This document shows, piece by piece, positions 29,641 through 62,800 of a stretch of DNA of 64,000 nt (within the stretch, counting starts at the first letter, position 1; every line of letters begins with the position of its first letter). Under the pieces are notes generated by a model. It was not told the DNA's origin. It searched no databases and was given only the letters and a program-made list of their open reading frames with translations. Origin of the DNA: Patescibacteria group bacterium (GTDB taxonomy: Bacteria > Patescibacteriota > Kazan-3B-28); assembly GCA_041649135.1 (NCBI GenBank), contig JBAZNQ010000001.1:445438-509437 (forward strand), given 5' to 3'. Made by a program: the position numbers and the translations under genes.

Positions 29641-29818
29641 TAGTGAGTCCCATAAGCTCCTCAACCTATACGCTGTAGCCCAAGGTGAAAGCCTGAAAAG
29701 CGCCATAGAGCATCTCATCAACTCTGCAATTGAAGCCGACTCAGAGCTTCAGCCACTTTTCATTCAGCTTGCCAACCACTCTGCAACAAAACCAGCAGAA
29801 CCTGCTGGACTTAAATAA
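29615..29818 (+). CDS. Small ribbon-helix-helix-like DNA-binding protein
   Basis: KLVRVSSESHKLLNLYAVAQGESLKSAIEHLI is RHH/Arc-like. Sits immediately upstream of the recombinase. Confidence 0.35.
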   Translation: MKDKLVRVSSESHKLLNLYAVAQGESLKSAIEHLINSAIEADSELQPLFIQLANHSATKPAEPAGLK

Positions 29819-29846
29819 AAACTTCGAGTATTGGTTTGTGTTGACT

Positions 29847-31451
29847 ATGAAATATATTCTCTACGCTAGAAAGTCCTCAGAAAGTGAAGACCGACAAGTA
29901 CTGTCGGTGGATTCGCAAATTCAAGAATTAAAGGCATTAGCCAAACGCAATGGTCAGCAAATAGTAGCTGTCCTTCAGGAATCGATGTCAGCCAAAGACC
30001 CAGAAAAGAGGCCAGTATTTGAAGAAATGGTAGATAGGATCAAGGGCGGAGAAGCTCAAGGTATTATCTGCTGGAAACTCGACCGATTAGCCCGCAATCC
30101 CGTTGATGGTGGAACAATCCAATGGATGCTCCAAAGAGGCGATGTCACGCACATTCAGACAGCTGATAGAAGTTATTACCCCAGCGACAATGTACTTCTG
30201 ATGAGTGTGGAGCTTGGTATGGCAAATCAGTTTATTCGAGACTTAAGTCAAAACACCAAAAGAGGTCTACGCGCAAAGGCAGCTCAAGGACACTATCCTG
30301 GCTATTCAACTATTGGATATATGCACGACCCTCTAGTCCCTAAGGGGAAAAAATATATCATCCCCGACCCAGAACGATTCTCGATTGTCCAACGAATGTT
30401 GCGACTAATAATTGATGGGGAAGCTAACCCACCTCAGGCACTAAAGGTCGCCACAGAAGAATGGGGTCTTAGAAGTAGGCTCGGCAACAAGTTGCCACAA
30501 AGTACTATCTATCGAATCATCAAAGATCCTTTTTACGCAGGATACTATGAATACCCTAAAGCCAGTGGTAATTGGTTTGATGGACTACATGAGGCAATGA
30601 TTACCAGAAGCGAGTACGACACACTCCAAGCAATTATGAAACGACCAAGTAGAACCCGTCCCAAAACCCTAATCTTTGCCTATACTGGCCTAATCTACTG
30701 TGGAGAATGTGGTGGTATGGTCACTGCCGAAATAAAAAGAAAGGTCTTAAAGAATGGGGAAATCAGAATCTACATCTACTATCACTGCACCAAGCGGAAA
30801 AATCCTAACTGCACTCAAAAGTGCATTACCGAAGAGGAGCTAGAATCTCAACTCGTAGCCATTCTTAAGCGAGTAGAACTCCCAGAGGATTTCAGCGAGT
30901 GGGTCATCAAGCAACTAGAGCTCATGAACCGCCAATCTGCCGAAAACCGCCAAGCCATATTGCGCGACCTGCAAGCTAACTACCAAAATTGCACCAAGCG
31001 TATCGACACCCTTATAGACATGCGTACTTCCGAAGCTATAACTTCAGAAGAGTTTGATACCAAGAAAGTTCAGCTACTAGCCGAAAAGGAACGAATCCAC
31101 GAGCTCCTGAATGACAAGGATCGCGATGTTAACCAGACCGTGGTTAGAACCGAGACAATCATAAGATTAGCCGAGCAAGCCACCCTTAAGCTCAAAACTG
31201 GTAGCATTCTCGAGAAGAAGCGTCTAGTATCCCAATTATGTTCGAACCTGACACTGCTAGACAATAAGCTCACCCTAGAAGTAGAAAAACCATTTTCTAT
31301 CGCAGAACGGCTGGCCACAGAAGTGCATGCCATTGCTGAAGGGTTAGAACCGCAAAAAGACCGCTCACAGAGCGACCTTATTGCCGAAAAACTAGTTGAT
31401 TCTGATAACTGGCTCCCGCGGCTGGATTCGAACCAGCGACCCATCGCTTAA
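29847..31451 (+). CDS. Large serine recombinase; the 3' end overlaps tRNA-Asn on the opposite strand
   Basis: YARKSS, DRLARN and a C-x2-C…YYHC zinc ribbon. Start taken at MKYILYARK. Confidence 0.85.
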   Translation: MKYILYARKSSESEDRQVLSVDSQIQELKALAKRNGQQIVAVLQESMSAKDPEKRPVFEEMVDRIKGGEAQGIICWKLDRLARNPVDGGTIQWMLQRGDVTHIQTADRSYYPSDNVLLMSVELGMANQFIRDLSQNTKRGLRAKAAQGHYPGYSTIGYMHDPLVPKGKKYIIPDPERFSIVQRMLRLIIDGEANPPQALKVATEEWGLRSRLGNKLPQSTIYRIIKDPFYAGYYEYPKASGNWFDGLHEAMITRSEYDTLQAIMKRPSRTRPKTLIFAYTGLIYCGECGGMVTAEIKRKVLKNGEIRIYIYYHCTKRKNPNCTQKCITEEELESQLVAILKRVELPEDFSEWVIKQLELMNRQSAENRQAILRDLQANYQNCTKRIDTLIDMRTSEAITSEEFDTKKVQLLAEKERIHELLNDKDRDVNQTVVRTETIIRLAEQATLKLKTGSILEKKRLVSQLCSNLTLLDNKLTLEVEKPFSIAERLATEVHAIAEGLEPQKDRSQSDLIAEKLVDSDNWLPRLDSNQRPIA

Positions 31452-31484
31452 CAGGCGATTGCTCTACCGCTGAGCTACACGGGA
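31410..31484 (-). tRNA. tRNA-Asn (GTT)
   Basis: Manual fold: acceptor UCCCGUG/CGCGGGA, anticodon loop CTGTTAA, T-loop TTCGAAT, encoded CCA. Confidence 0.75.
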
Positions 31485-31503: not shown

Positions 31504-31560
31504 AGTTAATATCCAATTTCCAATATCCAATTCTCAAGTGTCCAATATCCAATGCCCAAT
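31504..31560. repeat. CCAAT heptad tandem array (CCAATNN x ~7)
   Basis: 7-bp periodic. An inverted partner lies at 31941-31966. Confidence 0.7.
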
Positions 31561-31562
31561 AA

Positions 31563-31940
31563 TCAAGAAGCAGAGACTTTAGCTATCATTTTGTTTTTGA
31601 TGGTCGCCAGTATTTTAACTATTTCTTGCCCTTCCGTAAACACCCCATCAAGAGCCAATAAGTCAACCGATTTTCGAACCTTTAGTATTCTCAACCAGTA
31701 CAGTGTCTCCTTAGCCTCTTTTAGAGCAATTGAGAGTTTATGTATAAAGTCTTTGTCCGACTGCGCTTCGCTTGCCTCCATCATATTGGCAGCGATTGAG
31801 GTAGCTGACCGTACCAACTGGCCAACGAGAGGACGAGATCTAAAATCTAGCACTACACCGTCAGTCAGTTGCAAAACTCGGTCAGCCAATGCTTCACAGC
31901 GATCATAAATATCAATTTTGTTTCCAGCTCGTTCCCCCAT
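31563..31940 (-). CDS. Four-helix-bundle protein (23S rRNA intervening-sequence protein family)
   Basis: IANMMEASEAQSDKDFIHKLSIALKEAKETLYWLRI signature. Confidence 0.7.
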   Translation of the reverse strand: MGERAGNKIDIYDRCEALADRVLQLTDGVVLDFRSRPLVGQLVRSATSIAANMMEASEAQSDKDFIHKLSIALKEAKETLYWLRILKVRKSVDLLALDGVFTEGQEIVKILATIKNKMIAKVSAS

Positions 31941-31974: not shown

Positions 31975-33744
31975 TTATTTTAGGTAATCCTTGAGTTTTT
32001 TAGAATCTTTCGACTTTCTTAGCTTCATCAATGCCTTGGCTTCTATCTGCCGAATACGCTCACGCGTCACCCCGAATTCCTTCCCCACTTCTTCCAAGGT
32101 ATGCGCCCATTCGCCACTTAAACCAAACCGCAGCTTCAGGATTTTTTGCTCTCTGGGCGACAGCAAGTCCAATACTCCACCCACATCTCCCTTCAGCAAC
32201 TCGTAAGCTGAAGCCTCTTCTGGCGTCAGACTATCCTCGTCTTGGATAAAGTCACCAAGCAAAGAATCATCTTCATCGCCCACCGATTTTTCTAAGCTCA
32301 CGGTTTCCTGCGAAATTTTTAATATGTGATTGACCTTCTCCACTTCCAATTCCATTTCATTAGCAATTTCCTCCGGAGTCGGCTCACGACCTAATTCCTG
32401 CACTAGTTGTCGTTGGGTTCTGGCCAGTCTATTCATCGTTTCTACCATATGAACTGGAATGCGAATCGTTCTGGCTTGGTCAGCAATTGCTCTGGTAATT
32501 GCCTGCCGGATCCACCAAGTCGCATATGTAGAAAACTTAAACCCGCGTCGCCAGTCGAATTTCTCCACCGCTTTCATCAGCCCGATGTTGCCCTCTTGGA
32601 TCAAATCCAACAGCGACAATCCTCGGCCAATATATTTCTTTGCGATCGATACCACCAACCGCAAGTTGGCTTCGGCCAGTTGTTTCGAGGCTAACGTATC
32701 GCTCTGCTCCACTCGTTTCGCTAGTGCGACCTCTTCTTCGGCCCGCAATAGTGGCACCTGACCAATTTCTTTCAAATACATCCGTACCGAGTCATCACTA
32801 ATATCATCTTCCAATAAATGCGGATCGATCTTGATTTCCAACTTATTCCGCATTTTCTTTTGCGTTGCCTCGGTTTTCTTGCTCATCTTGTTGTCATCCG
32901 CCAACGCCCAAATCAAATCATCCCGCACATCCACTACCTCAATACCCTCTTCCATTAATAATTGGAAAAGTTGATCAAGCAGTTCTATCTGTTTTTCGAC
33001 ATTTGGAATTACCTTCTCAAGTTCCTGTTGAGTAATAAAACCCTTCGCCTTACCCGCCGATACTAGATCAGCCAACGGACCGGGCAGATTACCAATTCCT
33101 GATTCCTTGCGTTTACGCTTCTTCTTTGCCTTCTCTTCTTCCTCGTCTTCAATCTCAAAAATCTTCAGCTTAGGTTCCTCTGGAATTGGTTCGCCCAACA
33201 ATTCCTCTTCCGCTCCCTTGCGACCACGCTTTGTTGGCTTAGCAACCTTGGCTGGTGCAGAATGCTTGACGTTCTTTTTTACCACCTTTTTGACCGCCAG
33301 AGAACGTTTGACGTTCTTCTTCGGCTTTGCTTTTTTCGCCAGCTTCTTCACCACCTTCTTCTTGGCTTTCATCCCGAGCTTGCCGAGAGACTTCGCCAGT
33401 TTTTTAACTATCTTCTTTTTCACCACCTTCTTCGCCATTTTTTTCTTAACTACCTTCTTGGCCAATCGCTTTTGAATCGCCCGTTTCGGGGCGGTCTTTT
33501 TCACAGCCGGCTTTTTAATCGGTTTCTTCTTGACCACTTTTTTTGCTACTTTTTTACCTACCTTTTTTACAGACTTCTTAGATTTCATCCCGAGCCTGCC
33601 GAGGGACTTTGTCGGCTTTTTCCCGACGGTCGCTCGTTTCCGAACCACCGCCCGTCGCAGACCCTTCGTAGCTTTAGCGGAGTAGGGTTTACCCGTCGCA
33701 CCACGAGTTGCTTTCTTTTTCACAAGCTTTTTTTTGCTCGCCAT
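31975..33744 (-). CDS. rpoD: RNA polymerase sigma-70 factor RpoD with a ~200-aa Lys/Ala-rich histone-H1-like N-terminal extension
   Basis: Region 2-4 motifs ([27 protein letters not shown]; [19 protein letters not shown]). KKVVKKK repeats at the N-terminus. Confidence 0.9.
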
Positions 33745-33780
33745 AGAAAGTCCTTTCTATAGTTATTACTTTGTCATCCT

Positions 33781-33875
33781 GAATACAACGAAGGATCTAG
33801 GTCGCCACAGCAACCGCTATCGCCCCAACGGGGCCCCTTTGGGGCTAGATTCTTCACTCCGTTCAGAATGACAAA
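33781..33875. repeat. MITE-like palindromic element with terminal inverted repeats TTGTCATCCTGAA/TTCAGAATGACAA
   Basis: 12/13 matching inverted ends. Member of the GTCATyC…GAATGAC hairpin family. Confidence 0.6.
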
Positions 33876-35606
33876 CTACAGTTGATTCAATTCCTTCAAA
33901 AGTTCCGCTACTCTCACTTGATCGTTCTTGGCTTCTGCTTCAGCGATCGCCGCCGCCAATTCATTTCTCTTAACAGTCGCGGACCGGTTCAGCAATAGAT
34001 CTAAATAAAACTTCAGTTCTTTTCCCAAATCCTCTACTGGGACACCCACGTACCCTTGTTCCAAAACCAACATCAATTCCGAAACAGCAGTTTTAGTCGG
34101 TTCAGGTAGTTGTTTCAAAAAATCTTCAGCTCGGAAGGTAGCGTCAGCAGTATACCAAGCGCGTAAACTATCGTAAATGGTATTTGCCAGTCCGGAAGCC
34201 CATTTTATTCTCTTCCCTGCCGTCAGTAGTTCCGACAACAGGCTAGCGTCCAACATCGGTAGCATCACCACCCGTTCTTCCAGCCAAGTCGGGGACATCT
34301 CCTCGGTTGATTCGCCTGCCGGTTTCACAAACTTGCGATTTGGCTTTAACGATTTCTTCAGAGCATCATATAGCACCGCCGGTTCCACATCTACCGTTCG
34401 CGCCAACCGCTTAATATAGTGGTCACGTTCCACGGGATCGTTCACTTTTGTGATCACCGCCAGCAACTCTCGGGTTAGTTGTTTTTTATCTTCTAATTTC
34501 GTTACATCATACTTCCTAGCCGCCACATCAAAATAGAAGTCCATTACCGGCACAGCCGCATCGACCGCCTTTTCCCAGTTCTCCGGATTTTCCTTGATCA
34601 TCGAATCGGGATCTTTATGATTCCCCAGCAACACCACTTTCACCGTCATATCAAAATTATTGGCCAACTCGAGCGCCCTCCGCGTTGCCTCCCCACCCGC
34701 CGCATCCGCATCTAACGACAATATGATCTCCTTGCCATAACGATTTAACATTTGTAGTTGCTGTTCCGTTAGCGCCGTTCCCGAAATTCCTACCACATTT
34801 TTTACCCCTGCTTGATAGGAGCTAATCGTATCCATCTGCCCTTCCACCATCACTACTCGTCCTTCTTGCTGAATGGTTTGCTTGGCCAAATGTAGCCCAT
34901 ATAGCATTTCGCTCTTATGGAACAATGGCGTCTCTGGTGAATTCAAATATTTCGGAATTCCATTCGGATCCAATACCCGACCAGTAAATGCCACCACTCT
35001 ACCAAGACTGTCCCACAACGGGAACATCACCCGTCCCACAAATTTGTCGTATAAAAAGTTACCCTTACGCACTCCCAAGCCAGCTTTTTCAATATCCGCC
35101 TCTTTTGCTCCCTTTCGGATCAAAAACTCCGCCAACGCCCTCCCCGACTTTGGCGCAAATCCAATCCGAAATCCAGCCAGAGTTGCCGGTAGCATCCCCC
35201 GACCTACCATATATTCCTTTGCCGCTCTCCCCTCATCAGTTTCCAACAAAACTTTTTCATAAAACCTTGCCGCCGTTTCGTTGATATTCATCAAAGTCTT
35301 ACGAGTATCGATCCCCGACTGCGGCACTTTGGAAAGCTGGATTCCCGTCTGTTCCGCCAACATCGACAAAGCTTCCGAAAAGCCCATCCCTTCTTTTTCC
35401 ATCACAAACTTAAATACGTCCCCACCCCGTCCACAGCCGAAACAGTGCCAAATCTGTTTGTCAGGGCTAACCATAAACGACGGAGACTTTTCCATGTGGA
35501 ACGGGCACAGCCCTTTGTAATTGGTACCAGCTTTTTTGAGCGGCAAATACCGGCCGATGAAATCGACCAAATCGATCTTGCCTTTAATTTCTTCTAAATC
35601 AGTCAT
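33876..35606 (-). CDS. dnaG: DNA primase DnaG
   Basis: Zinc finger CPFHMEKSPSFMV…HCFGCGRGGD, plus a TOPRIM domain. Confidence 0.9.
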   Translation of the reverse strand: MTDLEEIKGKIDLVDFIGRYLPLKKAGTNYKGLCPFHMEKSPSFMVSPDKQIWHCFGCGRGGDVFKFVMEKEGMGFSEALSMLAEQTGIQLSKVPQSGIDTRKTLMNINETAARFYEKVLLETDEGRAAKEYMVGRGMLPATLAGFRIGFAPKSGRALAEFLIRKGAKEADIEKAGLGVRKGNFLYDKFVGRVMFPLWDSLGRVVAFTGRVLDPNGIPKYLNSPETPLFHKSEMLYGLHLAKQTIQQEGRVVMVEGQMDTISSYQAGVKNVVGISGTALTEQQLQMLNRYGKEIILSLDADAAGGEATRRALELANNFDMTVKVVLLGNHKDPDSMIKENPENWEKAVDAAVPVMDFYFDVAARKYDVTKLEDKKQLTRELLAVITKVNDPVERDHYIKRLARTVDVEPAVLYDALKKSLKPNRKFVKPAGESTEEMSPTWLEERVVMLPMLDASLLSELLTAGKRIKWASGLANTIYDSLRAWYTADATFRAEDFLKQLPEPTKTAVSELMLVLEQGYVGVPVEDLGKELKFYLDLLLNRSATVKRNELAAAIAEAEAKNDQVRVAELLKELNQL

Positions 35607-35804
35607 ATCCTTGCTCCAAATTCTAATTTCGAATCTCTAAATTCTAAACAAATCCCAAACTCTAACTTCCTAAACTGTTTCTCATGCGTCATCCCCGAAC
35701 CGACAACGATAGCACGTCGATATCGGGGATCCAGACAAAAACAGAAACATTTTTATTTTTAAGGTCTAGATCCCCGCCTTCGCGGGAATGACAACCAAGG
35801 AGGA

Positions 35805-35935
35805 CTCTACTCTCTACTCTCTACTCTCTACTCTCTACTCTCTACTCTCTACTCTCTACTCTCTACTCTCTACTCTCTACTCTCTACTCTCTACTCTCTA
35901 CTCTCTACTCTCTACTCTCTACTCTCTACTCTCTA
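35805..35935. repeat. Perfect heptanucleotide microsatellite (CTCTACT) x ~18
   Basis: Seen directly. The ORF-track entry 35788..36003 is a translation of it. Confidence 0.95.
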
Positions 35936-36515
35936 GCGTACCCACTGCCTCCACTATCTCCCCCCAGTTGTCAGCCCGAAGCACCGATGCCGGCAGCCGA
36001 TGATAGCCATTCCAAGGTTTGTTCATAACTATCAATCTTACTCCATGTTTCATCAAAGACTCCACATGCCGAGTATCGTCGTCTATCAGCACCTCACACC
36101 CTAGCCGTTCACATACCTCCCCCTTAGTCAAAGTTGGACTCCCATCTTTGGAGTAGCTATTAGTAAATTCAACCATCTTGAATGAATTGGGGAAGTTTCT
36201 GCCCAACCAATCATAAGTAATTTTCTGCACCACATTCTGTCTGCCAGTTACCACGTATAACTCGTGATCTTTTATCAACTCCTCAATTCCTTCTTGCGCA
36301 CCTGCTACCACCGGTAAATTTTGATAACTCTCTGTCTCAAAGAATCTATGGATATCATCAATCGCTTCCTCTAATGTATTCCCCAGAAATATTGGCCAAT
36401 GAGAATCCATCGCATCGTCAAAAGTCCACTCCGTACCATACTGCAGGTTATACCACTTCAAAAATTCCCGAATCTCCTCCGCCAGCACTTCATCTAAATC
36501 AACCGCAATTTTCAT
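35919..36515 (-). CDS. HAD-superfamily 5'(3')-deoxyribonucleotidase (NT5C-like)
   Basis: HAD motif I MKIAVDLDEVL at the preferred N-terminus. The longer ORF 35919..36587 probably over-extends. Confidence 0.55.
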   Translation of the reverse strand: MKIAVDLDEVLAEEIREFLKWYNLQYGTEWTFDDAMDSHWPIFLGNTLEEAIDDIHRFFETESYQNLPVVAGAQEGIEELIKDHELYVVTGRQNVVQKITYDWLGRNFPNSFKMVEFTNSYSKDGSPTLTKGEVCERLGCEVLIDDDTRHVESLMKHGVRLIVMNKPWNGYHRLPASVLRADNWGEIVEAVGTLESRE

Positions 36516-36526
36516 GCTGCAGTCTT

Positions 36527-37024
36527 TTAAACTCTCGCAAACAAAATCATATAATTGTTGCCAAACTTCTGGGCGCACTTCGGACAATAGGCGTAGTGAA
36601 TATAATATTCCTTTGCCTTTTTATTCTGGCCAGCCAAATACTGGTTCATCTGCCCAATGAATTTTGGGATAGAGTTATACCCGCCATCAAACACCTTAGC
36701 CACAAACGTCCCAGACAATGTTACATTTTTAGCATCGGGCACCACCCCAGTGGTTGAAATATGAATGTCGGACCGAAACGCCGTTGGATCCGAAAACAGC
36801 ACCAAAACACTTCCCTTGTCCTCCGCCACCATTTTGGCATCCTCCACCATTTTCCACATCTTGGTAATTTTGCTACCGATCATTGAAGGAAGTGGCATAT
36901 GAAAAAACGTCGGGATACTTTCCTTGATAAACGGCTTATTCTCCCAATTAAATTCTTTCCCGTCCCACCGAGCCACATCGAACTGCGGGCAACACACCTG
37001 ATCGTTCTGAAGTTGGTTATTCAT
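36527..37024 (-). CDS. Hypothetical protein
   Basis: 165-aa ORF. Confidence 0.4.
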   Translation of the reverse strand: MNNQLQNDQVCCPQFDVARWDGKEFNWENKPFIKESIPTFFHMPLPSMIGSKITKMWKMVEDAKMVAEDKGSVLVLFSDPTAFRSDIHISTTGVVPDAKNVTLSGTFVAKVFDGGYNSIPKFIGQMNQYLAGQNKKAKEYYIHYAYCPKCAQKFGNNYMILFARV

Positions 37025-37041: not shown

Positions 37042-37470
37042 CTATATTTTTATCTTATTACCCAAAAATGCCTCAAACGCCGGTAATAAATTTGGTATCA
37101 GGTTGTAATTTTGGAACTCCTTGGGATCAATCCACTCAAACGCATCGTGATCCTCACTTAGCACCACTCGGTCCGAGTTAGTTTCACATTCAAAGAACGT
37201 TCCGACGATCTGCCATTGCTCACCTCTAACTACTGGTCGCCATTCATTCACAAAAAACGGCTTTCCGATTTTCACAGTCAACCCTGTCTCTTCCATAATT
37301 TCCCGCAACAAACTTTCATCAAACCTCTGCCCCGGCTTTAACCTTCCCCCCGGTACATCAAACCTCGCCACATTCGACCCATCTTCATATTTGGTCGACT
37401 CGCGCAAAATCAAAACCTTCCCGTTGAAAACAATAAATGCTTTTGTTGCCACAAAAATTTTCGGTTCCAT
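37042..37470 (-). CDS. NUDIX hydrolase
   Basis: GGRLKPGQRFDESLLREIMEETGL Nudix box. Start moved to MEPKIF (GGAG RBS) because the longer ORF runs into the tRNA-Ser. Confidence 0.75.
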   Translation of the reverse strand: MEPKIFVATKAFIVFNGKVLILRESTKYEDGSNVARFDVPGGRLKPGQRFDESLLREIMEETGLTVKIGKPFFVNEWRPVVRGEQWQIVGTFFECETNSDRVVLSEDHDAFEWIDPKEFQNYNLIPNLLPAFEAFLGNKIKI

Positions 37471-37491
37471 AATTTCTCCTGGCGGAGGGTG

Positions 37492-37581
37492 AGGGATTCG
37501 AACCCTCGAGGGGCTTGCGCCCCAAACCGCTTTCCAAGCGATCGCCATAGACCGCTAGGCGAACCCTCCAATTAAACGCTC
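37492..37581 (-). tRNA. tRNA-Ser (GGA), long variable arm
   Basis: Manual fold: acceptor GGAGGGU/ACCCUCC, anticodon loop TTGGAAA, variable arm GGGGCGCAAGCCCC, encoded CCA. Confidence 0.75.
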
Positions 37582-37597
37582 CACGTTAATATTCAAT

Positions 37598-37660
37598 ATC
37601 CAATCTCCAATTTTTCAACCATCATAGCCCCATTGGACATTGGGCATTGGACATTAGCCC
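37598..37660. repeat. Inverted pair of CCAAT heptad arrays (TTAATATTCAATATCCAATCTCCAAT … ATTGGACATTGGGCATTGGACATT) with a ~20-bp spacer
   Basis: Matches the arrays flanking the four-helix-bundle gene. Confidence 0.7.
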
Positions 37661-38240: not shown

Positions 38241-38693
38241 AGCCACCTCCAAGTTCTCAAAGGGGACACCAGCCCCCTCTGGTTTTGATGACTCCACTCT
38301 ACACCTCCCCAACCCCATTGAGCAAATAGCGTCCGCCAATAGCAAAATTGACCGCTTAGCCCAGCATGTTTGAGGAGCAAAGCGACGAGTTTGCGATTAA
38401 GGCAAGAAAGGTCAATTTTGCTCTATTGGCTAGCTATTTGTGATTGGGCGTCCTTTCGGTGCTACCGCTTTGGACGAGCAAAGCGGTAGCGAAAAAGAAA
38501 ATGGATTCCCGCCTTCGCGGGAATGACGACGGGGGTATGGGGGTTGACCCCCAGAATAAAACAACCTATACTGCCCTCATATAAAACCTAACCTTCTACT
38601 CCCCGAGACAACCTCGGGGCAAAGCCCCCTCACAGAGGCTCACCCATAGACAAGGCTGACTTCAGATAGGTAAAAGTTGCCAAAGGCAACCCC

Positions 38694-38763
38694 CATCACT
38701 GTTCACTATTAACTATTCACTCTTCACCCCTCACTATTAATTATTAACCATTAACTAACCCCT
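38694..38763 (+). promoter_or_regulatory. Heptad-periodic leader (TTCACTA/TTAACTA x ~9) directly abutting the rpsF start codon, with no Shine-Dalgarno
   Basis: 7-bp periodicity, seen directly. Confidence 0.7.
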
Positions 38764-40747: not shown

Positions 40748-40785
40748 CTCTAGTGGCTAGTGGCTAATCCCTAAACTCTAACTTT
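40748..40785 (+). promoter_or_regulatory. Heptad-periodic leader (CTAGTGG CTAGTGG CTAATCC CTAAACT CTAACTT) abutting the efp start codon
   Basis: A 25-mer is identical to 62762-62787. Confidence 0.65.
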
Positions 40786-41371: not shown

Positions 41372-41535
41372 CCCGTCATTCCGGCCTCCACCTGCCCGCC
41401 TTTGGAGGGAGCCGGAATCCAGACAACAACAGAAACATTTTTTATTTTCTTTGCTGGATTCTCCGGTTCCATCCTTCGTTCGCCATGGCGAACTACGGAG
41501 GACTAACGCAAGCCGGAGAATGACAAAATTAAATA
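41372..41535. repeat. MITE-like hairpin element (CCGTCATTCCGGC…GCCGGAATCCAGACAACAACAGAAACATTTTTTATTTT … GCCGGAGAATGACAAAA)
   Basis: Shares the block CCAGACAAnAACAGAAACATTTTTATTTT with 35735-35765. Confidence 0.55.
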
Positions 41536-42037: not shown

Positions 42038-42073
42038 AAACCCCAGCACATTTTGATTATTGGTTATTGGTAA
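42038..42073 (+). promoter_or_regulatory. Heptad-periodic (ATTGGNN) leader abutting the ychF start codon
   Basis: TTATTGG TTATTGG TAATTGA TTATTAA. Confidence 0.6.
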
Positions 42074-43183
42074 TTGATTATTAACTCTATGAGTTTAAAA
42101 ATTGGTATCGTTGGCCTCCCCAACGTCGGGAAATCTACTTTATTTAATGCTCTACTTGGTGCCAACCAAGCAACGGCTTCCAATTTCCCGTTCTGTACTA
42201 TCGAACCGAACACCGGCATCGTTCCCGTTCCCGATGCTCGTCTGGCCAAACTCTCCGAGCTGGAACATTCAGCTCAAATCGTCCCTGCTACCGTTGAGTT
42301 TGTGGATATTGCCGGTCTTGTGCGCGGCGCCTCCCAAGGTGAAGGATTAGGCAACAAATTCCTTTCTCATGTTCGCGAAGTGGACGCCATCCTTGAAGTC
42401 GTTCGTTTGTTTTCCGATTCCAATGTCACCCATGTTAGCGGCGATATTTCGCCCAAAGACGATATTGAGATCATCAATACCGAGCTTATTCTTGCCGACC
42501 TACAAAGTATGGAGGGACGCTTAGTCAAAGAAGAAAAGGCTGCCCGCGGCGATGCCAAACTTCAGCCCAAAGTAGATTTCTTTCTAAGAGTCCAAGAACA
42601 TTTAGGTAACGGTCTACCCGCTCGCTCAATGAACTTGTCTGACACAGAGCTCCTGTGGTTAAAAGAACTTCAGCTCATTTCCGCCAAACCCATTCTTTAC
42701 ATCGCTAATATCGACGGTACCCAAATCAAAGATGCCGTTACCCTTCTCAACCCAGTTCACGAACTTGTTACCAAAGACAACGCCGAGATTATCGCCATTG
42801 ACGCCAAGACTGAAGCCGAAGTCGTAGAACTTACGCCAGAAGAACGCATCGATTATCTTCGCGAAGCTGGTATTACCGAGTCAGGCTTGGACAAGGTTAT
42901 CCGTGCCGGCTACAAGTTACTCGGTCTCATCACCTATTTCACCGCCGGCGAAAAAGAAACCCGCGGTTGGACTATTCACAATGGCGATACCGCTCCCATT
43001 GCCGCCGGTGCCATTCATACCGATTTCACCAAAGGCTTCATCCGTGCTGAAACCGTTGGCTTTAATGATTTCATCAACAACGGCGGTTGGATCGGTGCCA
43101 AAACTGCTGGAAAGGTCCGAAGTGAAGGCAAAGACTACGTCGTTAAAGACGGCGATGTCATGCTCTTCCGCTTCAACGTGTAA
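42074..43183 (+). CDS. ychF: Ribosome-binding ATPase YchF (Obg-family GTPase)
   Basis: G1 motif GIVGLPNVGKSTLFNAL and a TGS C-domain. Confidence 0.9.
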   Translation: MIINSMSLKIGIVGLPNVGKSTLFNALLGANQATASNFPFCTIEPNTGIVPVPDARLAKLSELEHSAQIVPATVEFVDIAGLVRGASQGEGLGNKFLSHVREVDAILEVVRLFSDSNVTHVSGDISPKDDIEIINTELILADLQSMEGRLVKEEKAARGDAKLQPKVDFFLRVQEHLGNGLPARSMNLSDTELLWLKELQLISAKPILYIANIDGTQIKDAVTLLNPVHELVTKDNAEIIAIDAKTEAEVVELTPEERIDYLREAGITESGLDKVIRAGYKLLGLITYFTAGEKETRGWTIHNGDTAPIAAGAIHTDFTKGFIRAETVGFNDFINNGGWIGAKTAGKVRSEGKDYVVKDGDVMLFRFNV

Positions 43184-50595: not shown

Positions 50596-50640
50596 TCCCT
50601 AATCTCTGACCCCTAGTCCCTAATCCCTATAGACTCCCCT
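50596..50640. repeat. Heptad-periodic (CCCTAAT/CCCTAGT) tandem array
   Basis: Seen directly, between the rnhB stop and the yraN start. Confidence 0.55.
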
Positions 50641-58380: not shown

Positions 58381-60795
58381 TTAAACAAAATTAATAACTC
58401 TGTCCCTCACAAAAATATGTTTGCTGGCACCCTCCGCCACTTTCTTTAGTTTCTCGTTTTGGTTCACCGCCGTCAGAACTTCCGCTTCACTCGCCCCTGC
58501 CGACATTTCAATTGTTCCTCGTAGTTTCCCCTTTTCCTGCACCGCGATCACTACAACTTTCGCCCGCGCTTTTTCGGGATCAAATTTTGGCCAATCAGCA
58601 TCCGTTACACTACCTTGCTGTTGTAACACCACTTGCCATAGCTCCTCCGCCAAATGCGGAGCGAAAGGGTTCAGTAACTTCGCAAAATCTACCAGCCAGT
58701 TGGTACTATCATCCTTGCTCACCTCGTTCACAAATTCCATCATACTGCTAATCGCCGTATTGAATTTTAATTCGGTAATATCTTCAGTTACTTTCTGAAC
58801 CAAACCATGGATGGCATCATTGTCGCCTCCCTTTTCCCCGACCCGCTCACCAATAATTCGATACACCCGTTCCAAGAATTTCCGTACTCCCGAGATACCA
58901 TTCGTATCCCAAGCGATCGCTTGATCAAACGGCCCCATAAACATTTCATACATCCGTACGGCATCAGCTCCATACTGGTCAATTAGTTCATCAGGATTAA
59001 TCACATTCCCCCGACTCTTACTCATCTTTTCCCCATCTGACGCCAAAATTAACCCTTGATGCCGAAGCTTCAAAAACGGCTCATCAAAATCTAAATAACC
59101 TAGTTTGTGCAAAGCCTTGGTAATAAATCTGGCATATAACAAATGTCCGTTGGTATGCTCTGCCCCACCAATATATAAATCTACCGGCATCCAGTATTTC
59201 AAAGACTCTTTACTAGCAAATTTCGTCTCGTTTTTCGGATCGCAATACCGTAAGTAATACCATGACGAACAAACAAAGGTATCCATCGTATCCAGCTCTC
59301 GATGCGCCCCCTTGCCATACTTTTCTTCTACCCCAGCCTGAAAAGTTTTTGAGTAAGCAAGAGGCGATTCACCATGTGGCTTAAAATCAACATCACTCGG
59401 CAACATCACCGGCAAATCCCTTTCATCCACCGCCACCACCTCCCACTCCTCCCCGCCTTTAATTGGTGAGATTGGTGTAGATTGGCGAGATTGTTTAGAT
59501 TCCCCCGCTGGTCGATAGACCACGGGTATTGGTGCTCCCCAATACCGCTGACGCGATATCAGCCAATCGTGTAATTTGTACTGCACCGTCACCTTCCCGC
59601 CAAATTTCTTGGCAATTTTTGCTGCCGCCCCTTTGGAGTCTTGCCCATCAAATTCACCCGAATTCATCAGCTCGCCATGTCCGGCATAAAATTTTTCATC
59701 CGATCCAATAACTTGAACCACCGGCAGATCAAATTTCTTAGCGAATTCAAAATCCCGCTCATCATGCGCTGGCACTGCCATGATCGCTCCCGTGCCGTAA
59801 TCCATCAGCACATAATCCGCAACCCAAATTGGGATCTCTTTTTTCGTAGCTGGATTAATCGCCATCACCCCCTTCAGACAAACCCCACTTTTCTCTTTTT
59901 GTGTCTGACGAGTTAGTGTGTTCTTCCGTCTTGCTTGCTCAATGTAATTTTGTACTTCCTCAAGATTCTGGATGCTAGATGCCAACTGCTGGATCAACTC
60001 ATGTTCAGGAGCTAGCACTAAATAAGTCGCCCCGAACAGTGTATCTGCCCTCGTCGTAAACACCTTGACTCGCGACTCGTTACTCGCGACTCGAAACTCT
60101 ATTTCTGCTCCTTCCGACTTCCCGATCCAATTTCGTTGCCCCGTCTTGGTCGACTCCGGCCAATCTAATTTATCCAACCCCACCAACAGTTCTTCTGCAA
60201 AATCCGTGATCTTGAAAAACCATTGCTTCAGTTTTTTCTGTTCGACTTGGCTGCCGCATCTCTCACAACAACCATTCACCACCTGCTCGTTAGCTAACAC
60301 AGTTTGATCCTTCGGACACCAGTTGGCATAAGCTTCCTTTTGATAAGCCAGTCCGTTGTCATATAAAACTTTGAACACCCACTGTGTCCATTTGTAATAA
60401 CTTGGATCAGCCGTATTCACTTCTCTACTCCAATCGTAGGCAAACCCAAACGATTTCATCTGCTGCGTAAATCGGGCAATATTCTTTTTGGTCGTTTCTG
60501 CCGGTGGTTGTCCGATTTTAATCGCATAGTTCTCCGCCGGCAAACCAAAAGCGTCCCAACCAATTGGGTGTAATACATTGTAGCCCTTCATTCGATAGTA
60601 CCGCGTAAAAATATCTGTCGCCGTAATCCCCCGCGGATGTCCAGTATGTAACCCATCTCCCGATGGATAAGTGAACATATCCAACGCATAAAACTTATGC
60701 GCCTTGTCGCCATCTACTGCCTTAAAAGTCTGGCGCTCTTCCCAATACTTCTGCCACTTCGGCTCAATCTGTTTGTGATCGTATTTGTCTACCAC
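58381..60795 (-). CDS. leuS: Leucyl-tRNA synthetase
   Basis: HIGH-class motif (HTGHPRG) and KMSKS. 804 aa. Confidence 0.95.
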   Translation of the reverse strand: MVDKYDHKQIEPKWQKYWEERQTFKAVDGDKAHKFYALDMFTYPSGDGLHTGHPRGITATDIFTRYYRMKGYNVLHPIGWDAFGLPAENYAIKIGQPPAETTKKNIARFTQQMKSFGFAYDWSREVNTADPSYYKWTQWVFKVLYDNGLAYQKEAYANWCPKDQTVLANEQVVNGCCERCGSQVEQKKLKQWFFKITDFAEELLVGLDKLDWPESTKTGQRNWIGKSEGAEIEFRVASNESRVKVFTTRADTLFGATYLVLAPEHELIQQLASSIQNLEEVQNYIEQARRKNTLTRQTQKEKSGVCLKGVMAINPATKKEIPIWVADYVLMDYGTGAIMAVPAHDERDFEFAKKFDLPVVQVIGSDEKFYAGHGELMNSGEFDGQDSKGAAAKIAKKFGGKVTVQYKLHDWLISRQRYWGAPIPVVYRPAGESKQSRQSTPISPIKGGEEWEVVAVDERDLPVMLPSDVDFKPHGESPLAYSKTFQAGVEEKYGKGAHRELDTMDTFVCSSWYYLRYCDPKNETKFASKESLKYWMPVDLYIGGAEHTNGHLLYARFITKALHKLGYLDFDEPFLKLRHQGLILASDGEKMSKSRGNVINPDELIDQYGADAVRMYEMFMGPFDQAIAWDTNGISGVRKFLERVYRIIGERVGEKGGDNDAIHGLVQKVTEDITELKFNTAISSMMEFVNEVSKDDSTNWLVDFAKLLNPFAPHLAEELWQVVLQQQGSVTDADWPKFDPEKARAKVVVIAVQEKGKLRGTIEMSAGASEAEVLTAVNQNEKLKKVAEGASKHIFVRDRVINFV

Positions 60796-62599: not shown

Positions 62600-62744
62600 A
62601 CCTAAATTGTACTACAGAGATAGTACATGTGAAGTTTGGATTCCGCTTCTAACAATAATCCGACTTACAATCGACGTATCTCGCTACTCGCCCTCGCCAA
62701 CAGCCATCGCTCGTCCGAATATAACAATTCCCGCCCCTAGATGC

Positions 62745-62800
62745 TAGATGCTATATCACTCCCCCTAGTGGCTAGTGGCTAATCCCTAGTGGCTAAATTA
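62745..62800. repeat. Heptad-periodic array (TAGATGC x2 … TAGTGGC x3)
   Basis: Shares a 25-mer with the efp leader. Confidence 0.6.

What the first reader, a model, noticed from the sequence alone, without database searches (positions are those of the whole stretch)
35805..35935. Perfect (CTCTACT)x18 heptanucleotide microsatellite upstream of dnaG
About 131 bp of uninterrupted 7-bp tandem repeat is very slippage-prone. It lies in the 312-bp region between the NT5C-like gene and the dnaG start. The unit length is not a multiple of three, and its promoter-proximal location is the classic configuration for phase-variable promoter spacing. Its perfection implies recent expansion. It is the same period as the heptad leaders elsewhere.
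Basis: seen in the sequence. Interest (0 to 1): 0.55.

Follow-up and report, generated by a model that had tools for sequence, protein, structure and literature searches.

The report
Hypermutable seven-base repeat before dnaG
A perfect 7-base repeat of at least 18 copies sits between a nucleotidase gene and the DNA primase gene of an uncultured Patescibacteria (CPR) bacterium; its length differs between otherwise identical assemblies, but it lies too far from the primase promoter to be a classic on/off spacing switch, so it is most likely an ordinary slippage-prone microsatellite.

Summary
Window 35805-35935 is a perfect (CTCTACT)x18.7 array. On the gene strand it reads (AGTAGAG)n. It lies between an NT5C-like gene and dnaG, which is followed by rpoD.

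Two details need correcting. The array supplies the last five codons and the TAG stop of the NT5C-like gene. It ends 198 bp before the dnaG ATG and 156 bp before the only promoter-like site.

Length variation is supported. About 12 kb of flanking DNA from another sample is identical to the window. That sample nevertheless carries a 17-unit allele and an allele of at least 19 units. A strain about 4% diverged has the same perfect array. Three of four other contigs break in the array.

The count of 18 may be a floor. A simulated k=127 assembly collapses any longer array to exactly 131 nt.

Closer relatives (81-91% DnaG identity) have no array. There NT5C and dnaG overlap by 4 nt (ATGA) or are 39-45 nt apart. 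The 312-bp spacer is therefore a lineage-specific insertion made of the array, a palindromic REP/BIME-like element and a new leader.

The classic -35/-10 promoter-spacing reading fails on geometry. Verdict: a real, hypermutable heptanucleotide repeat, probably near-neutral. It is a new member of a known kind and of modest interest.

The parts
35805..35935 (-). Perfect heptanucleotide array. It reads TAGAG+(AGTAGAG)x18 on the gene strand and (CTCTACT)x18.7 on the + strand.
   Evidence: TRF score 262 with 100% matches; sequence read directly; regex count. TAG stops occur in all three frames on the - strand and none on the + strand. The array is unstructured as RNA or DNA.
35919..36515 (-). NT5C-like 5'-nucleotidase gene (198 aa, MKIAV...GTLESRE*). 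Its last five codons and its TAG stop lie in the first units of the array.
   Evidence: Pfam PF06941, E=1.7e-13. The exact 198-aa product is called in three assemblies. NCBI MFA5010079.1, locus tag WC553_02520. C-terminal alignment with relatives.
35793..35804 (-). 12-nt junction TCCTCCTTGGTT between the array and the palindromic element. It reads AAGGAGGA on the + strand. It looks like a ribosome-binding site on + and like an anti-SD sequence on -.
   Evidence: Sequence. No start codon follows it on the + strand because the array contains no G.
35688..35792 (.). REP/BIME-like composite palindromic element. Two GTCAT-headed hairpin units lie in inverted orientation around an A/T-rich core, CCAGACAAAAACAGAAACATTTTTATTTT.
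   Evidence: Inverted repeats I1 and I3. A second copy lies at 41375-41535 in the opposite orientation relative to its genes. A single unit lies at 38505-38527. Units also occur in distant CPR loci L008, L015 and L072.
35607..35687 (-). dnaG leader. It consists of degenerate heptads (GTTTAGG AAGTTAG ... AGAATTT AGAGATT CGAAATT AGAATTT), a promoter-like TTTAGA-17-TAGAAT at 35648-35620, and a GGAG ribosome-binding site.
   Evidence: TRF 35618-35648, period 7; promoter scan; sequence.
33876..35606 (-). dnaG (DNA primase, 576 aa).
   Evidence: Pfam Zn_ribbon_DnaG, DNAG_N, Toprim and DnaB_bind; NCBI MFA5010078.1.
31975..33744 (-). rpoD (primary sigma factor, 589 aa), next gene in the dnaG-rpoD pair.
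   Evidence: Pfam Sigma70 regions r1.1-r4.

Best explanation
The tract is a genuine long simple-sequence repeat with a 7-nt unit. It grows and shrinks in whole units by replication slippage.

It arose inside a lineage-specific 312-bp insertion. That insertion pulled apart an ancestrally overlapping, translationally coupled NT5C-dnaG gene pair. The array possibly nucleated on a GTAGAG seed at the 3' end of the NT5C-like gene.

It now acts as the stop codon and 3' trailer of that gene and lies about 200 bp upstream of dnaG. Beside it are a REP/BIME-like palindromic element and a new dnaG leader that carries its own promoter-like site.

Length changes cannot alter either protein and cannot change -35/-10 spacing. 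The array is therefore most likely a near-neutral hypermutable by-product of a genome that readily makes heptanucleotide repeats, with at most a weak graded effect on read-through transcripts.

Shown here: the array exists, it is perfect, its length varies, it is absent from relatives, and its geometry rules out a -35/-10 spacer. Inferred: slippage as the mechanism, the seed, and the lack of regulatory function.
For: Length polymorphism against an invariant background:
- L213 (7,981 nt) differs from the window only by one missing unit and a boundary T>G change.
- L212 (4,220 nt) is identical to the window and its array runs past 18 units.
- L083 and L214 are 100% identical.
- The 17-unit allele is shorter than k=141, so it must be supported by reads that span it.

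The same perfect array occurs in a strain with 96% nucleotide identity in the NT5C gene and different neighbouring genes.

Relatives lack the array:
- L216 (91% DnaG identity), L217 (87%), L004 (81%) and L007 (66%) have an ATGA overlap of NT5C and dnaG.
- L218/L005 have a 39-45 nt spacer containing GGTAGAGGGGTAA at the homologous spot.

Geometry and structure:
- The only promoter-like site is 156 bp downstream of the array and 13 nt before the ATG.
- No Rfam family matches.
- The array does not pair with anything. The spacer RNA folds with z = -0.67 and the array is single-stranded in the MFE structure, and the DNA folds have about 0 kcal/mol.

Genome-wide tendency:
- 8 period-7 arrays in the window against 0.2 in shuffles.
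- 39 period-7 against 11 period-8 arrays across 648 kb of CPR loci.

The same unit forms arrays of 5-17 copies in at least 119 unrelated metagenome contigs with no shared flanks, so such arrays arise independently.

The literature reports heptanucleotides as the most abundant long SSR class, attributed to polymerase slippage (PMC4679880).
Against: - Both lineages that carry the array keep it long (at least 15 to at least 19 units) and perfect across about 4% sequence divergence. Selection on length or sequence could explain this as well as fast turnover could.
- No transcript data exist. The array may be transcribed into a dnaG-rpoD mRNA by read-through, since no terminator-like site was found between NT5C and dnaG.
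- The evidence for length variation comes from contig ends and one contig tip, not from reads.
- The true copy number in the window's own genome is uncertain.
Confidence: 0.6

Rival explanations
1. hmw-type rheostat. The array is transcribed as part of a long 5'-UTR or intercistronic stretch of a dnaG-rpoD mRNA, by read-through from the tRNA-Ser/NUDIX/hydrolase/NT5C operon. Its length would tune primase and sigma-factor expression in a graded way, through mRNA stability or processing.
For: - It is a heptanucleotide SSR upstream of a gene and its length varies.
- No terminator-like site lies between NT5C and dnaG.
- The ancestral arrangement is a co-transcribed, overlapping NT5C-dnaG pair.
- The array is retained perfect in two diverged lineages.
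- There is a precedent. Expression of H. influenzae hmw1A is inversely proportional to the length of its (ATCTTTC)n tract, which lies in the 5'-UTR (PMC12721329).
Against: - The hmw mechanism needs a long hairpin between the repeats and a complementary G-rich arm. Here the purine-rich array has no partner and stays unpaired.
- dnaG has its own promoter-like site and ribosome-binding site downstream of the array.
- dnaG and rpoD are essential housekeeping genes, which are unusual targets for stochastic tuning.
Confidence: 0.13
2. Functional heptad array of the STRR/TAACTGA type. The units would be binding sites for a single-strand nucleic-acid-binding protein (Csp or S1-like). Alternatively, on the antisense RNA, (CUCUACU)n is C-rich, G-free and unstructured and could load Rho to stop antisense transcription into the operon.
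For: - Heptad arrays are strongly enriched in this genome and lie mostly next to start codons and tRNA genes.
- Similar ATTGGAT/AATGTCC-type heptads recur in a distant Kazan-group locus, L009.
- The + strand transcript would contain no G and about 43% C, and it is unstructured.
- Published proposals exist for heptamer-binding regulators (PMC4679880).
Against: - The AGTAGAG unit is unique to this locus in the window.
- The array lies 198 nt from the start codon, unlike the other heptad sets.
- It has 18 perfect copies, whereas the others have 3-8 degenerate copies.
- No binding protein or Rho dependence was tested or could be tested here.
- The function of such repeats is unproven even in cyanobacteria and Beggiatoaceae.
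Confidence: 0.1
3. Distal promoter-element spacing switch (nadA-like), the nearest form of the first reader's idea. Unit changes would alter the distance or helical phase between an upstream operator or bending site and the dnaG promoter.
For: - The array is upstream of the promoter-like site and varies in 7-bp steps, which rotates upstream DNA by about 240 degrees per unit.
- There is a precedent in N. meningitidis nadA, where a TAAA tract lies upstream of the -35 (PMC2791445).
Against: - Everything upstream of the array is the coding sequence of the NT5C-like gene, and no candidate operator was seen there.
- 105 bp of palindromic element and a further spacer separate the array from the -35.
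- The target is a housekeeping gene.
Confidence: 0.05
4. Mainly an assembly product. The repeat exists, but its size, perfection and apparent polymorphism would come from de Bruijn graph collapse and tips rather than from biology.
For: - 131 nt is exactly the length a k=127 assembler would output for any array of 18 or more units.
- Contigs end in the array in three other assemblies.
- The 17-unit allele is seen only on a contig tip that reaches 27 nt beyond the array.
Against: - The array is present in four independent datasets with identical junctions.
- A 124-nt array inside k=141 contigs requires real spanning k-mers.
- In the same sample another contig shows more than 131 nt of array.
- Collapse can hide copies but cannot create perfect units.
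Confidence: 0.04

Closest known systems
Haemophilus influenzae hmw1A/hmw2A (ATCTTTC)n heptanucleotide SSR (PMC12721329; PMC8262952)
   Same: It has a 7-nt unit and a long perfect array of well over 10 copies. It is located upstream of a gene rather than inside it. Its length changes in whole units within populations.
   Different: The hmw tract lies in a mapped 5'-UTR. It pairs with a G-rich arm to form an RNase III-cleaved hairpin, and it controls a surface adhesin. The array here has no pairing partner. It lies upstream of the only promoter-like site and precedes the essential primase gene.
Intergenic heptamer direct repeats: TAACTGA sets of Beggiatoaceae, Cyanobacteria and Bacteroidetes (PMC4679880), and cyanobacterial STRR heptamers (from my own knowledge, not tested here)
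   Same: Tandem 7-nt units occur in intergenic DNA, with many sets per genome. Indels between strains come in 7-nt steps. Occasional long arrays are reported, up to 43 copies. Close relatives have shorter intergenic regions without the repeats, as seen here.
   Different: Those families share one unit sequence across many loci, usually within a few nucleotides of a start codon. Here the units differ from locus to locus. AGTAGAG occurs only at this locus in the window, and the array is 198 nt from the ATG. The host is a CPR bacterium, a group for which I found no such report.
Classic promoter-spacer SSR phase variation, such as dinucleotide or homopolymer tracts between -35 and -10 (from my own knowledge), and distal-element spacing at nadA (PMC2791445)
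   Same: A hypermutable tract in a non-coding region upstream of a gene.
   Different: A 131-bp tract cannot be a 16-18 bp spacer, and it lies 156 bp upstream of the -35-like hexamer. No upstream operator is evident. The gene is not a contingency gene.
Long simple-sequence repeats (unit 5-11 nt) of prokaryotic genomes, among which heptanucleotides are the most abundant class (Mrazek et al. 2007, as summarised in PMC4679880 and PMC4692102)
   Same: It matches in unit length, perfect head-to-tail structure, intergenic position, polymorphism in unit steps and a sporadic phylogenetic distribution.
   Different: Nothing essential differs. This is the class the array belongs to. The host phylum and the position inside the dnaG-rpoD neighbourhood are new details.

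Membership tests
Long simple-sequence repeat (slippage-generated microsatellite, unit 5-11 nt) | Uninterrupted head-to-tail copies of one short unit, far beyond chance | tested here: met
   18.7 copies with 100% matches, TRF score 262; 0.33 chance matches expected.
Long simple-sequence repeat (slippage-generated microsatellite, unit 5-11 nt) | Length differs between strains or populations in whole units while the flanks stay the same | tested here: met
   17, 18 and at least 19 units against 0 other differences in about 12 kb. This is contig-level evidence only. The figure of 18 may be a k=127 floor.
SSR phase-variation switch, promoter-spacer type | Tract lies between or overlaps the -35 and -10 elements, so that unit changes alter their spacing | tested here: not met
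   The tract is 131 bp long. The only promoter-like site (35648-35620) begins 156 bp downstream of it, and no hexamer pair lies within the array.
SSR phase-variation switch, promoter-spacer type | Expression of the downstream gene switches with tract length | not testable with these tools
   No transcript, reporter or read-level data are available.
hmw-type 5'-UTR heptanucleotide rheostat | Repeat is transcribed within the 5'-UTR of the regulated gene | tested here: inconclusive
   The promoter-like site lies downstream of the array. Read-through from the upstream operon is not excluded, since no terminator-like site was found.
hmw-type 5'-UTR heptanucleotide rheostat | Repeats pair with a complementary arm to form a long hairpin (the RNase III substrate) | tested here: not met
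   The array is fully unpaired in both the MFE and centroid structures of the 371-nt spacer RNA, with z = -0.67. It has no self-structure as DNA.
Intergenic heptamer direct-repeat families (TAACTGA / STRR type) | Many sets of tandem 7-nt units per genome, in intergenic regions | tested here: met
   8 period-7 arrays against 0.2 in shuffles, none at periods 8-13, and all 8 intergenic.
Intergenic heptamer direct-repeat families (TAACTGA / STRR type) | The same or closely related unit is reused at many loci | tested here: not met
   AGTAGAG occurs only at this locus in the window. Other arrays use ATTGGAT, AATGTCC, ACTATTA, TTGATTA, CTAGTGG or AGAATTT.
Intergenic heptamer direct-repeat families (TAACTGA / STRR type) | Sets lie within a few nucleotides upstream of a start codon | tested here: not met
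   This array ends 198 nt before the dnaG ATG. The feature is met by the other heptad sets, for example 6 nt before the rpsF ATG and 6 nt before the ATG at 42089.

The most novel reading that the evidence does not exclude
This CPR lineage may build promoters and leaders out of heptanucleotide arrays. Under that reading, the long perfect array upstream of dnaG-rpoD would be a selected, heritable but rapidly mutable 'volume knob' for the primase and primary sigma factor. It would give an ultra-small episymbiotic bacterium population-level variation in replication and transcription capacity. The retention of a long, perfect array in two lineages about 4% apart would then reflect selection rather than turnover.
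Probability: 0.07. Interest if true: 0.65.

Novelty: new member of a known kind. Interest (0 to 1): 0.3.

Why it matters
As a lone microsatellite it matters little. It does give a ready-made, highly discriminating strain marker for an uncultured Patescibacteria population. It also explains why short-read assemblies of this organism break at this point.

The context is more useful. This lineage has split an ancestrally overlapping NT5C-dnaG pair by inserting a heptad array and REP/BIME-like palindromic elements, and it carries many short heptad arrays at gene and tRNA leaders. I found no report of heptanucleotide repeats in CPR bacteria.

If array length were shown to tune dnaG-rpoD expression, that would be an unusual case of contingency-type regulation of core housekeeping genes.

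Tried and rejected
- **Known RNA family in the spacer.** The Rfam E-value scan of 35000-36600 gave only a chance miRNA hit at E=0.82. Rejected.
- **Intrinsic terminator between NT5C and dnaG.** None was found.
- **Promoter formed by the array itself.** No hexamer pair passes the scan.
- **Hairpin or cruciform made by the array.** Fold energies are about 0 kcal/mol on both strands.
- **The + strand ORF 35788-36003** (71 aa, MTTKEDSTLYSLLST...). It is an antisense reading of the repeat. Its ATG lies inside the palindromic element and has no ribosome-binding site. The AAGGAGGA just before the array is followed by no start codon, because the array contains no G. Rejected as a gene.
- **Array as part of the palindromic mobile-like element.** The second copy at 41375-41535 has no array. 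Rejected.
- **Shared origin with other (AGTAGAG)n arrays.** At least 119 metagenome contigs and 9 viral contigs carry the unit, but none shares the flanks. Rejected.
- **Search for more strains.** The exact right-junction 23-mer is absent from JGI metagenome contigs. Exact-protein look-ups for DnaG, NT5C, the hydrolase and RpoD found only two further samples, and the cluster look-up added one more.
- **H-DNA.** The tract is 6/7 purine on one strand but is not a true mirror repeat (by inspection). Not pursued.

Full report
**1. Observation**

Window 35805-35935 is an uninterrupted (CTCTACT)x18.7 array. TRF gives period 7, 100% matches and score 262. The sequence read directly agrees, and a regex finds 18 full units followed by CTCTA. 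Chance cannot produce this. A two-unit probe with up to 2 mismatches hits 19 times, 18 of them in the array, against 0.33 expected.

All neighbouring genes are on the minus strand, where the unit reads AGTAGAG. In order they are:
- tRNA-Ser, 37569-37480
- NUDIX
- Bact_hydrolase, 37024-36527
- NT5C-like gene, 36515-35919
- the array
- dnaG, 35606-33876
- rpoD, 33744-31975

First, the array begins inside the NT5C-like ORF, which ends ...cTA GAG AGT AGA GAG TAG, so the array supplies that gene's stop codon. On the minus strand every frame meets TAG within 21 nt. On the plus strand there are no stops. Second, the array ends 198 bp before the dnaG ATG.

**2. Organism and independent copies**

The closest DnaG homologues are all from Patescibacteria (CPR) MAGs. 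The exact proteins belong to an NCBI MAG, 'Patescibacteria group bacterium' (WC553_02520, 521-kb contig).

The locus was recovered from three other datasets:
- **ENA ERZ27247363.** Contig k141_2859426 begins 27 nt before the array and runs into dnaG. Contig k141_1975538 ends inside the array.
- **Logan SRR8542065.** The contig ends after 3 units.
- **JGI 3300037067.** The contig ends after 107 nt of array.

The repeat is therefore real, and it routinely breaks short-read assemblies.

**3.

- blastn shows that 7,981 nt of k141_2859426 match the window with no difference except at the array. It has 17 units instead of 18, and a T>G change at the first repeat base.
- 4,220 nt of k141_1975538 are 100% identical to the window. 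Its array then continues 2 nt past the point where the window's array exits, so it has at least 19 units.
- The Logan contigs are 100% identical.

The array is thus the only variable site in about 12 kb. Two length alleles coexist in one sample.

Caveats apply. This is contig-level evidence. The 17-unit allele sits on a contig tip, which suggests a minor allele.

A de Bruijn simulation shows that at k=127 any array of 18 or more units yields exactly 131 nt by the shortest path, and at k=141 any array of 20 or more units yields 20 units. The window's 18 may therefore be a floor. The 17-unit allele is shorter than either k and must be backed by spanning reads.

**4. Age and origin**

The JGI strain has 96% nucleotide identity (98% amino-acid identity) in the NT5C-like gene. 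It has different neighbours, with MazG present and NUDIX absent. It carries the same perfect array at the same junction. The array therefore predates one clone and has stayed perfect. That fits either rapid slippage turnover or selection.

Every more distant relative lacks it:
- L216 (91% DnaG identity, 690-kb contig), L217 (87%), L004 (81%) and L007 (66%) have NT5C and dnaG overlapping by ATGA. This is the classic translationally coupled arrangement.
- L218/L005 have a 39-45 nt spacer. At the homologous position they read GCGGTAGAGGGGTAA. This is a possible GTAGAG seed for the array (inference).

**5. What else is in the spacer**

Next to the array lies a 12-nt junction, TCCTCCTTGGTT. After it comes a composite palindromic element of about 105 bp (35688-35792). 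It is built of two GTCAT-headed hairpin units in inverted orientation around an A/T-rich core.

A second copy of this element lies at 41375-41535, in the opposite orientation relative to its genes. A single unit lies at 38505-38527. A related element fills the dnaG-rpoD spacer, which is 131 nt here against 21 nt in L216.

The last roughly 80 nt before dnaG are degenerate heptads. They contain the only minus-strand promoter-like site of the region, TTTAGA-17-TAGAAT at 35648-35620, 13 nt before the ATG, and a GGAG ribosome-binding site. No terminator-like site and no Rfam family were found.

**6. Genome-wide heptads**

Arrays of at least 3 copies with at least 80% lag identity number 8 at period 7, against 0.2 in shuffles. 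There are none at periods 8-13.

All 8 are intergenic. Apart from the array studied here, they lie upstream of a gene or tRNA start. Examples are 24 nt before tRNA-Asn, 19 and 62 nt before tRNA-Ser, 6 nt before rpsF, 6 nt before the ATG at 42089, and 12 nt before dnaG.

Across 80 CPR dnaG loci (648 kb), period 7 gives 39 arrays and period 8 gives 11. A Kazan-group locus shares the ATTGGAT/AATGTCC type. The nearest array-free relatives, L216-L218, have none.

This array nevertheless differs from the leader heptads in four ways. Its unit is unique to this locus. It has 18 perfect copies rather than 3-8 degenerate ones. It is far from the start codon. It abuts a stop codon.

**7. Mechanism**

The array has no self-structure as RNA or DNA and pairs with nothing in the spacer. 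The most economical reading is replication slippage in a long perfect repeat that lies in a non-coding trailer.

It cannot change either protein. It cannot change -35/-10 spacing, because the tract is 131 bp long and lies 156 bp upstream of the -35-like hexamer. I therefore rate it a near-neutral hypermutable SSR (confidence 0.6).

The rivals, with my confidence in each, are:
- an hmw-like graded modulator through read-through transcripts (0.13)
- a protein- or Rho-binding heptad array (0.10)
- a distal-spacing switch (0.05)
- mainly an assembly effect (0.04)

**8. Comparison with known systems**

The class is the long SSR, in which heptanucleotide units are reported as the commonest and are attributed to polymerase slippage (PMC4679880; PMC4692102).

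The nearest functional precedent is the H. influenzae hmw1A (ATCTTTC)n tract. It lies in the 5'-UTR, and expression falls as the tract lengthens. That mechanism depends on an RNase III-cleaved hairpin (PMC12721329), and the hairpin feature is not met here.

The TAACTGA heptamer sets of Beggiatoaceae, Cyanobacteria and Bacteroidetes share several traits with this array. These are 7-nt indels between strains, occasional long arrays, and relatives with shorter repeat-free spacers. They differ in reusing one unit next to start codons.

The same AGTAGAG unit forms arrays of 5-17 copies in at least 119 unrelated metagenome contigs and in 9 viral contigs, with no shared flanks. Such arrays therefore arise independently. 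I found no paper on SSRs or heptamer repeats in CPR bacteria.

**9. Verdict**

The tract is variable, but it is not a promoter-spacing switch. It is a new member of a known kind, with interest of about 0.3.

The decisive data would be spanning reads or amplicons for the true length distribution, and transcript mapping to show whether the array is in the dnaG mRNA at all.

Noticed in passing
window 31508-31567, 35618-35648, 37588-37611, 37631-37655, 38698-38757, 40750-40766, 42053-42082, 50596-50629, 62737-62795: Short degenerate heptanucleotide arrays of 3-8 copies with units ATTGGAT, AATGTCC, ACTATTA, CTAGTGG, TTGATTA, TAGGGAT and AGAATTT. They lie in intergenic DNA, mostly 6-62 nt upstream of a start codon or a tRNA gene. 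Period 7 is enriched (8 arrays against 0.2 in shuffles) and periods 8-13 are absent. Similar ATTGGAT/AATGTCC arrays occur in Kazan-group locus L009.
   Followed up: partly
window 35688-35792, 41375-41535, 38505-38527, about 33773-33872; also L008 432-451, L015 24-43, L072 5375-5392: A REP/BIME-like family. GTCAT(T/C)CC-stem-loop-stem-GGAAT hairpin units occur singly or as inverted pairs around a conserved core, CCAGACAAnAACAGAAACATTTTTTATTTT. They fill spacers that are much shorter in close relatives; for example the dnaG-rpoD spacer is 131 nt here against 21 nt in L216. The stems covary between copies (CCCGC/GCGGG versus CCGGC/GCCGG). No Rfam match was found in the one copy covered by the Rfam scan.
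   Followed up: partly
L216 2408-3004/3001, L217 2411-3004/3001, L004 and L007 upstream of dnaG: In relatives the NT5C-like gene and dnaG overlap by ATGA, which indicates translational coupling. The NT5C-dnaG-rpoD order is conserved down to 66% DnaG identity. The window lineage has lost the coupling.
   Followed up: yes
L010, L012, L013, L015, L016 (last 20 nt before the dnaG start): More distant CPR relatives have a GGTATAAT-type -10 box ending 8-10 nt before the dnaG ATG. This suggests leaderless or near-leaderless dnaG mRNAs in this group.
   Followed up: no
window 33100-33744 (N-terminal ~200 aa of RpoD): The primary sigma factor carries a roughly 200-residue lysine-rich, low-complexity N-terminal extension (KKVVKK/AKKV repeats) ahead of region 1.1. 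TRF also reports period-12 to period-17 repeats here.
   Followed up: no
window 29730-31451 (+), next to tRNA-Asn 31410-31484; L213 4505-7981: A large serine recombinase (Resolvase, Recombinase and Zn_ribbon_recom domains) abuts tRNA-Asn, with a DUF3800 gene beyond it. This is possibly an integrated element. A 23S_rRNA_IVP gene lies between rpoD and the tRNA.
   Followed up: no
window 37042-37548 versus tRNA-Ser 37480-37569: The 168-aa mechanical ORF for the NUDIX gene overlaps tRNA-Ser at its N-terminus. Other assemblies call a 142-aa product starting at MEPKIF, so the true start is near 37470.
   Followed up: partly
L137, L172, L100, L145 (unrelated metagenome contigs): In several unrelated contigs an (AGTAGAG)n array is followed within about 20 nt by the inverted (CTCTACT)n array. 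This gives a long hairpin made of heptads. No inverted partner exists in the window.
   Followed up: no
L084 1635-1662 and L088 343-370 (IMG/VR viral contigs): (AGTAGAG)x4 sits directly in front of AGGAG plus an ATG in two phage contigs. It is a heptad 'leader' with the same unit in an unrelated setting.
   Followed up: no
window 60067-60099: The period-7/14 repeat here (GAGTCGC...) lies inside a coding region that looks like leucyl-tRNA synthetase (...[21 protein letters not shown]; family assigned from memory, not tested). It is not an intergenic heptad array.
   Followed up: partly
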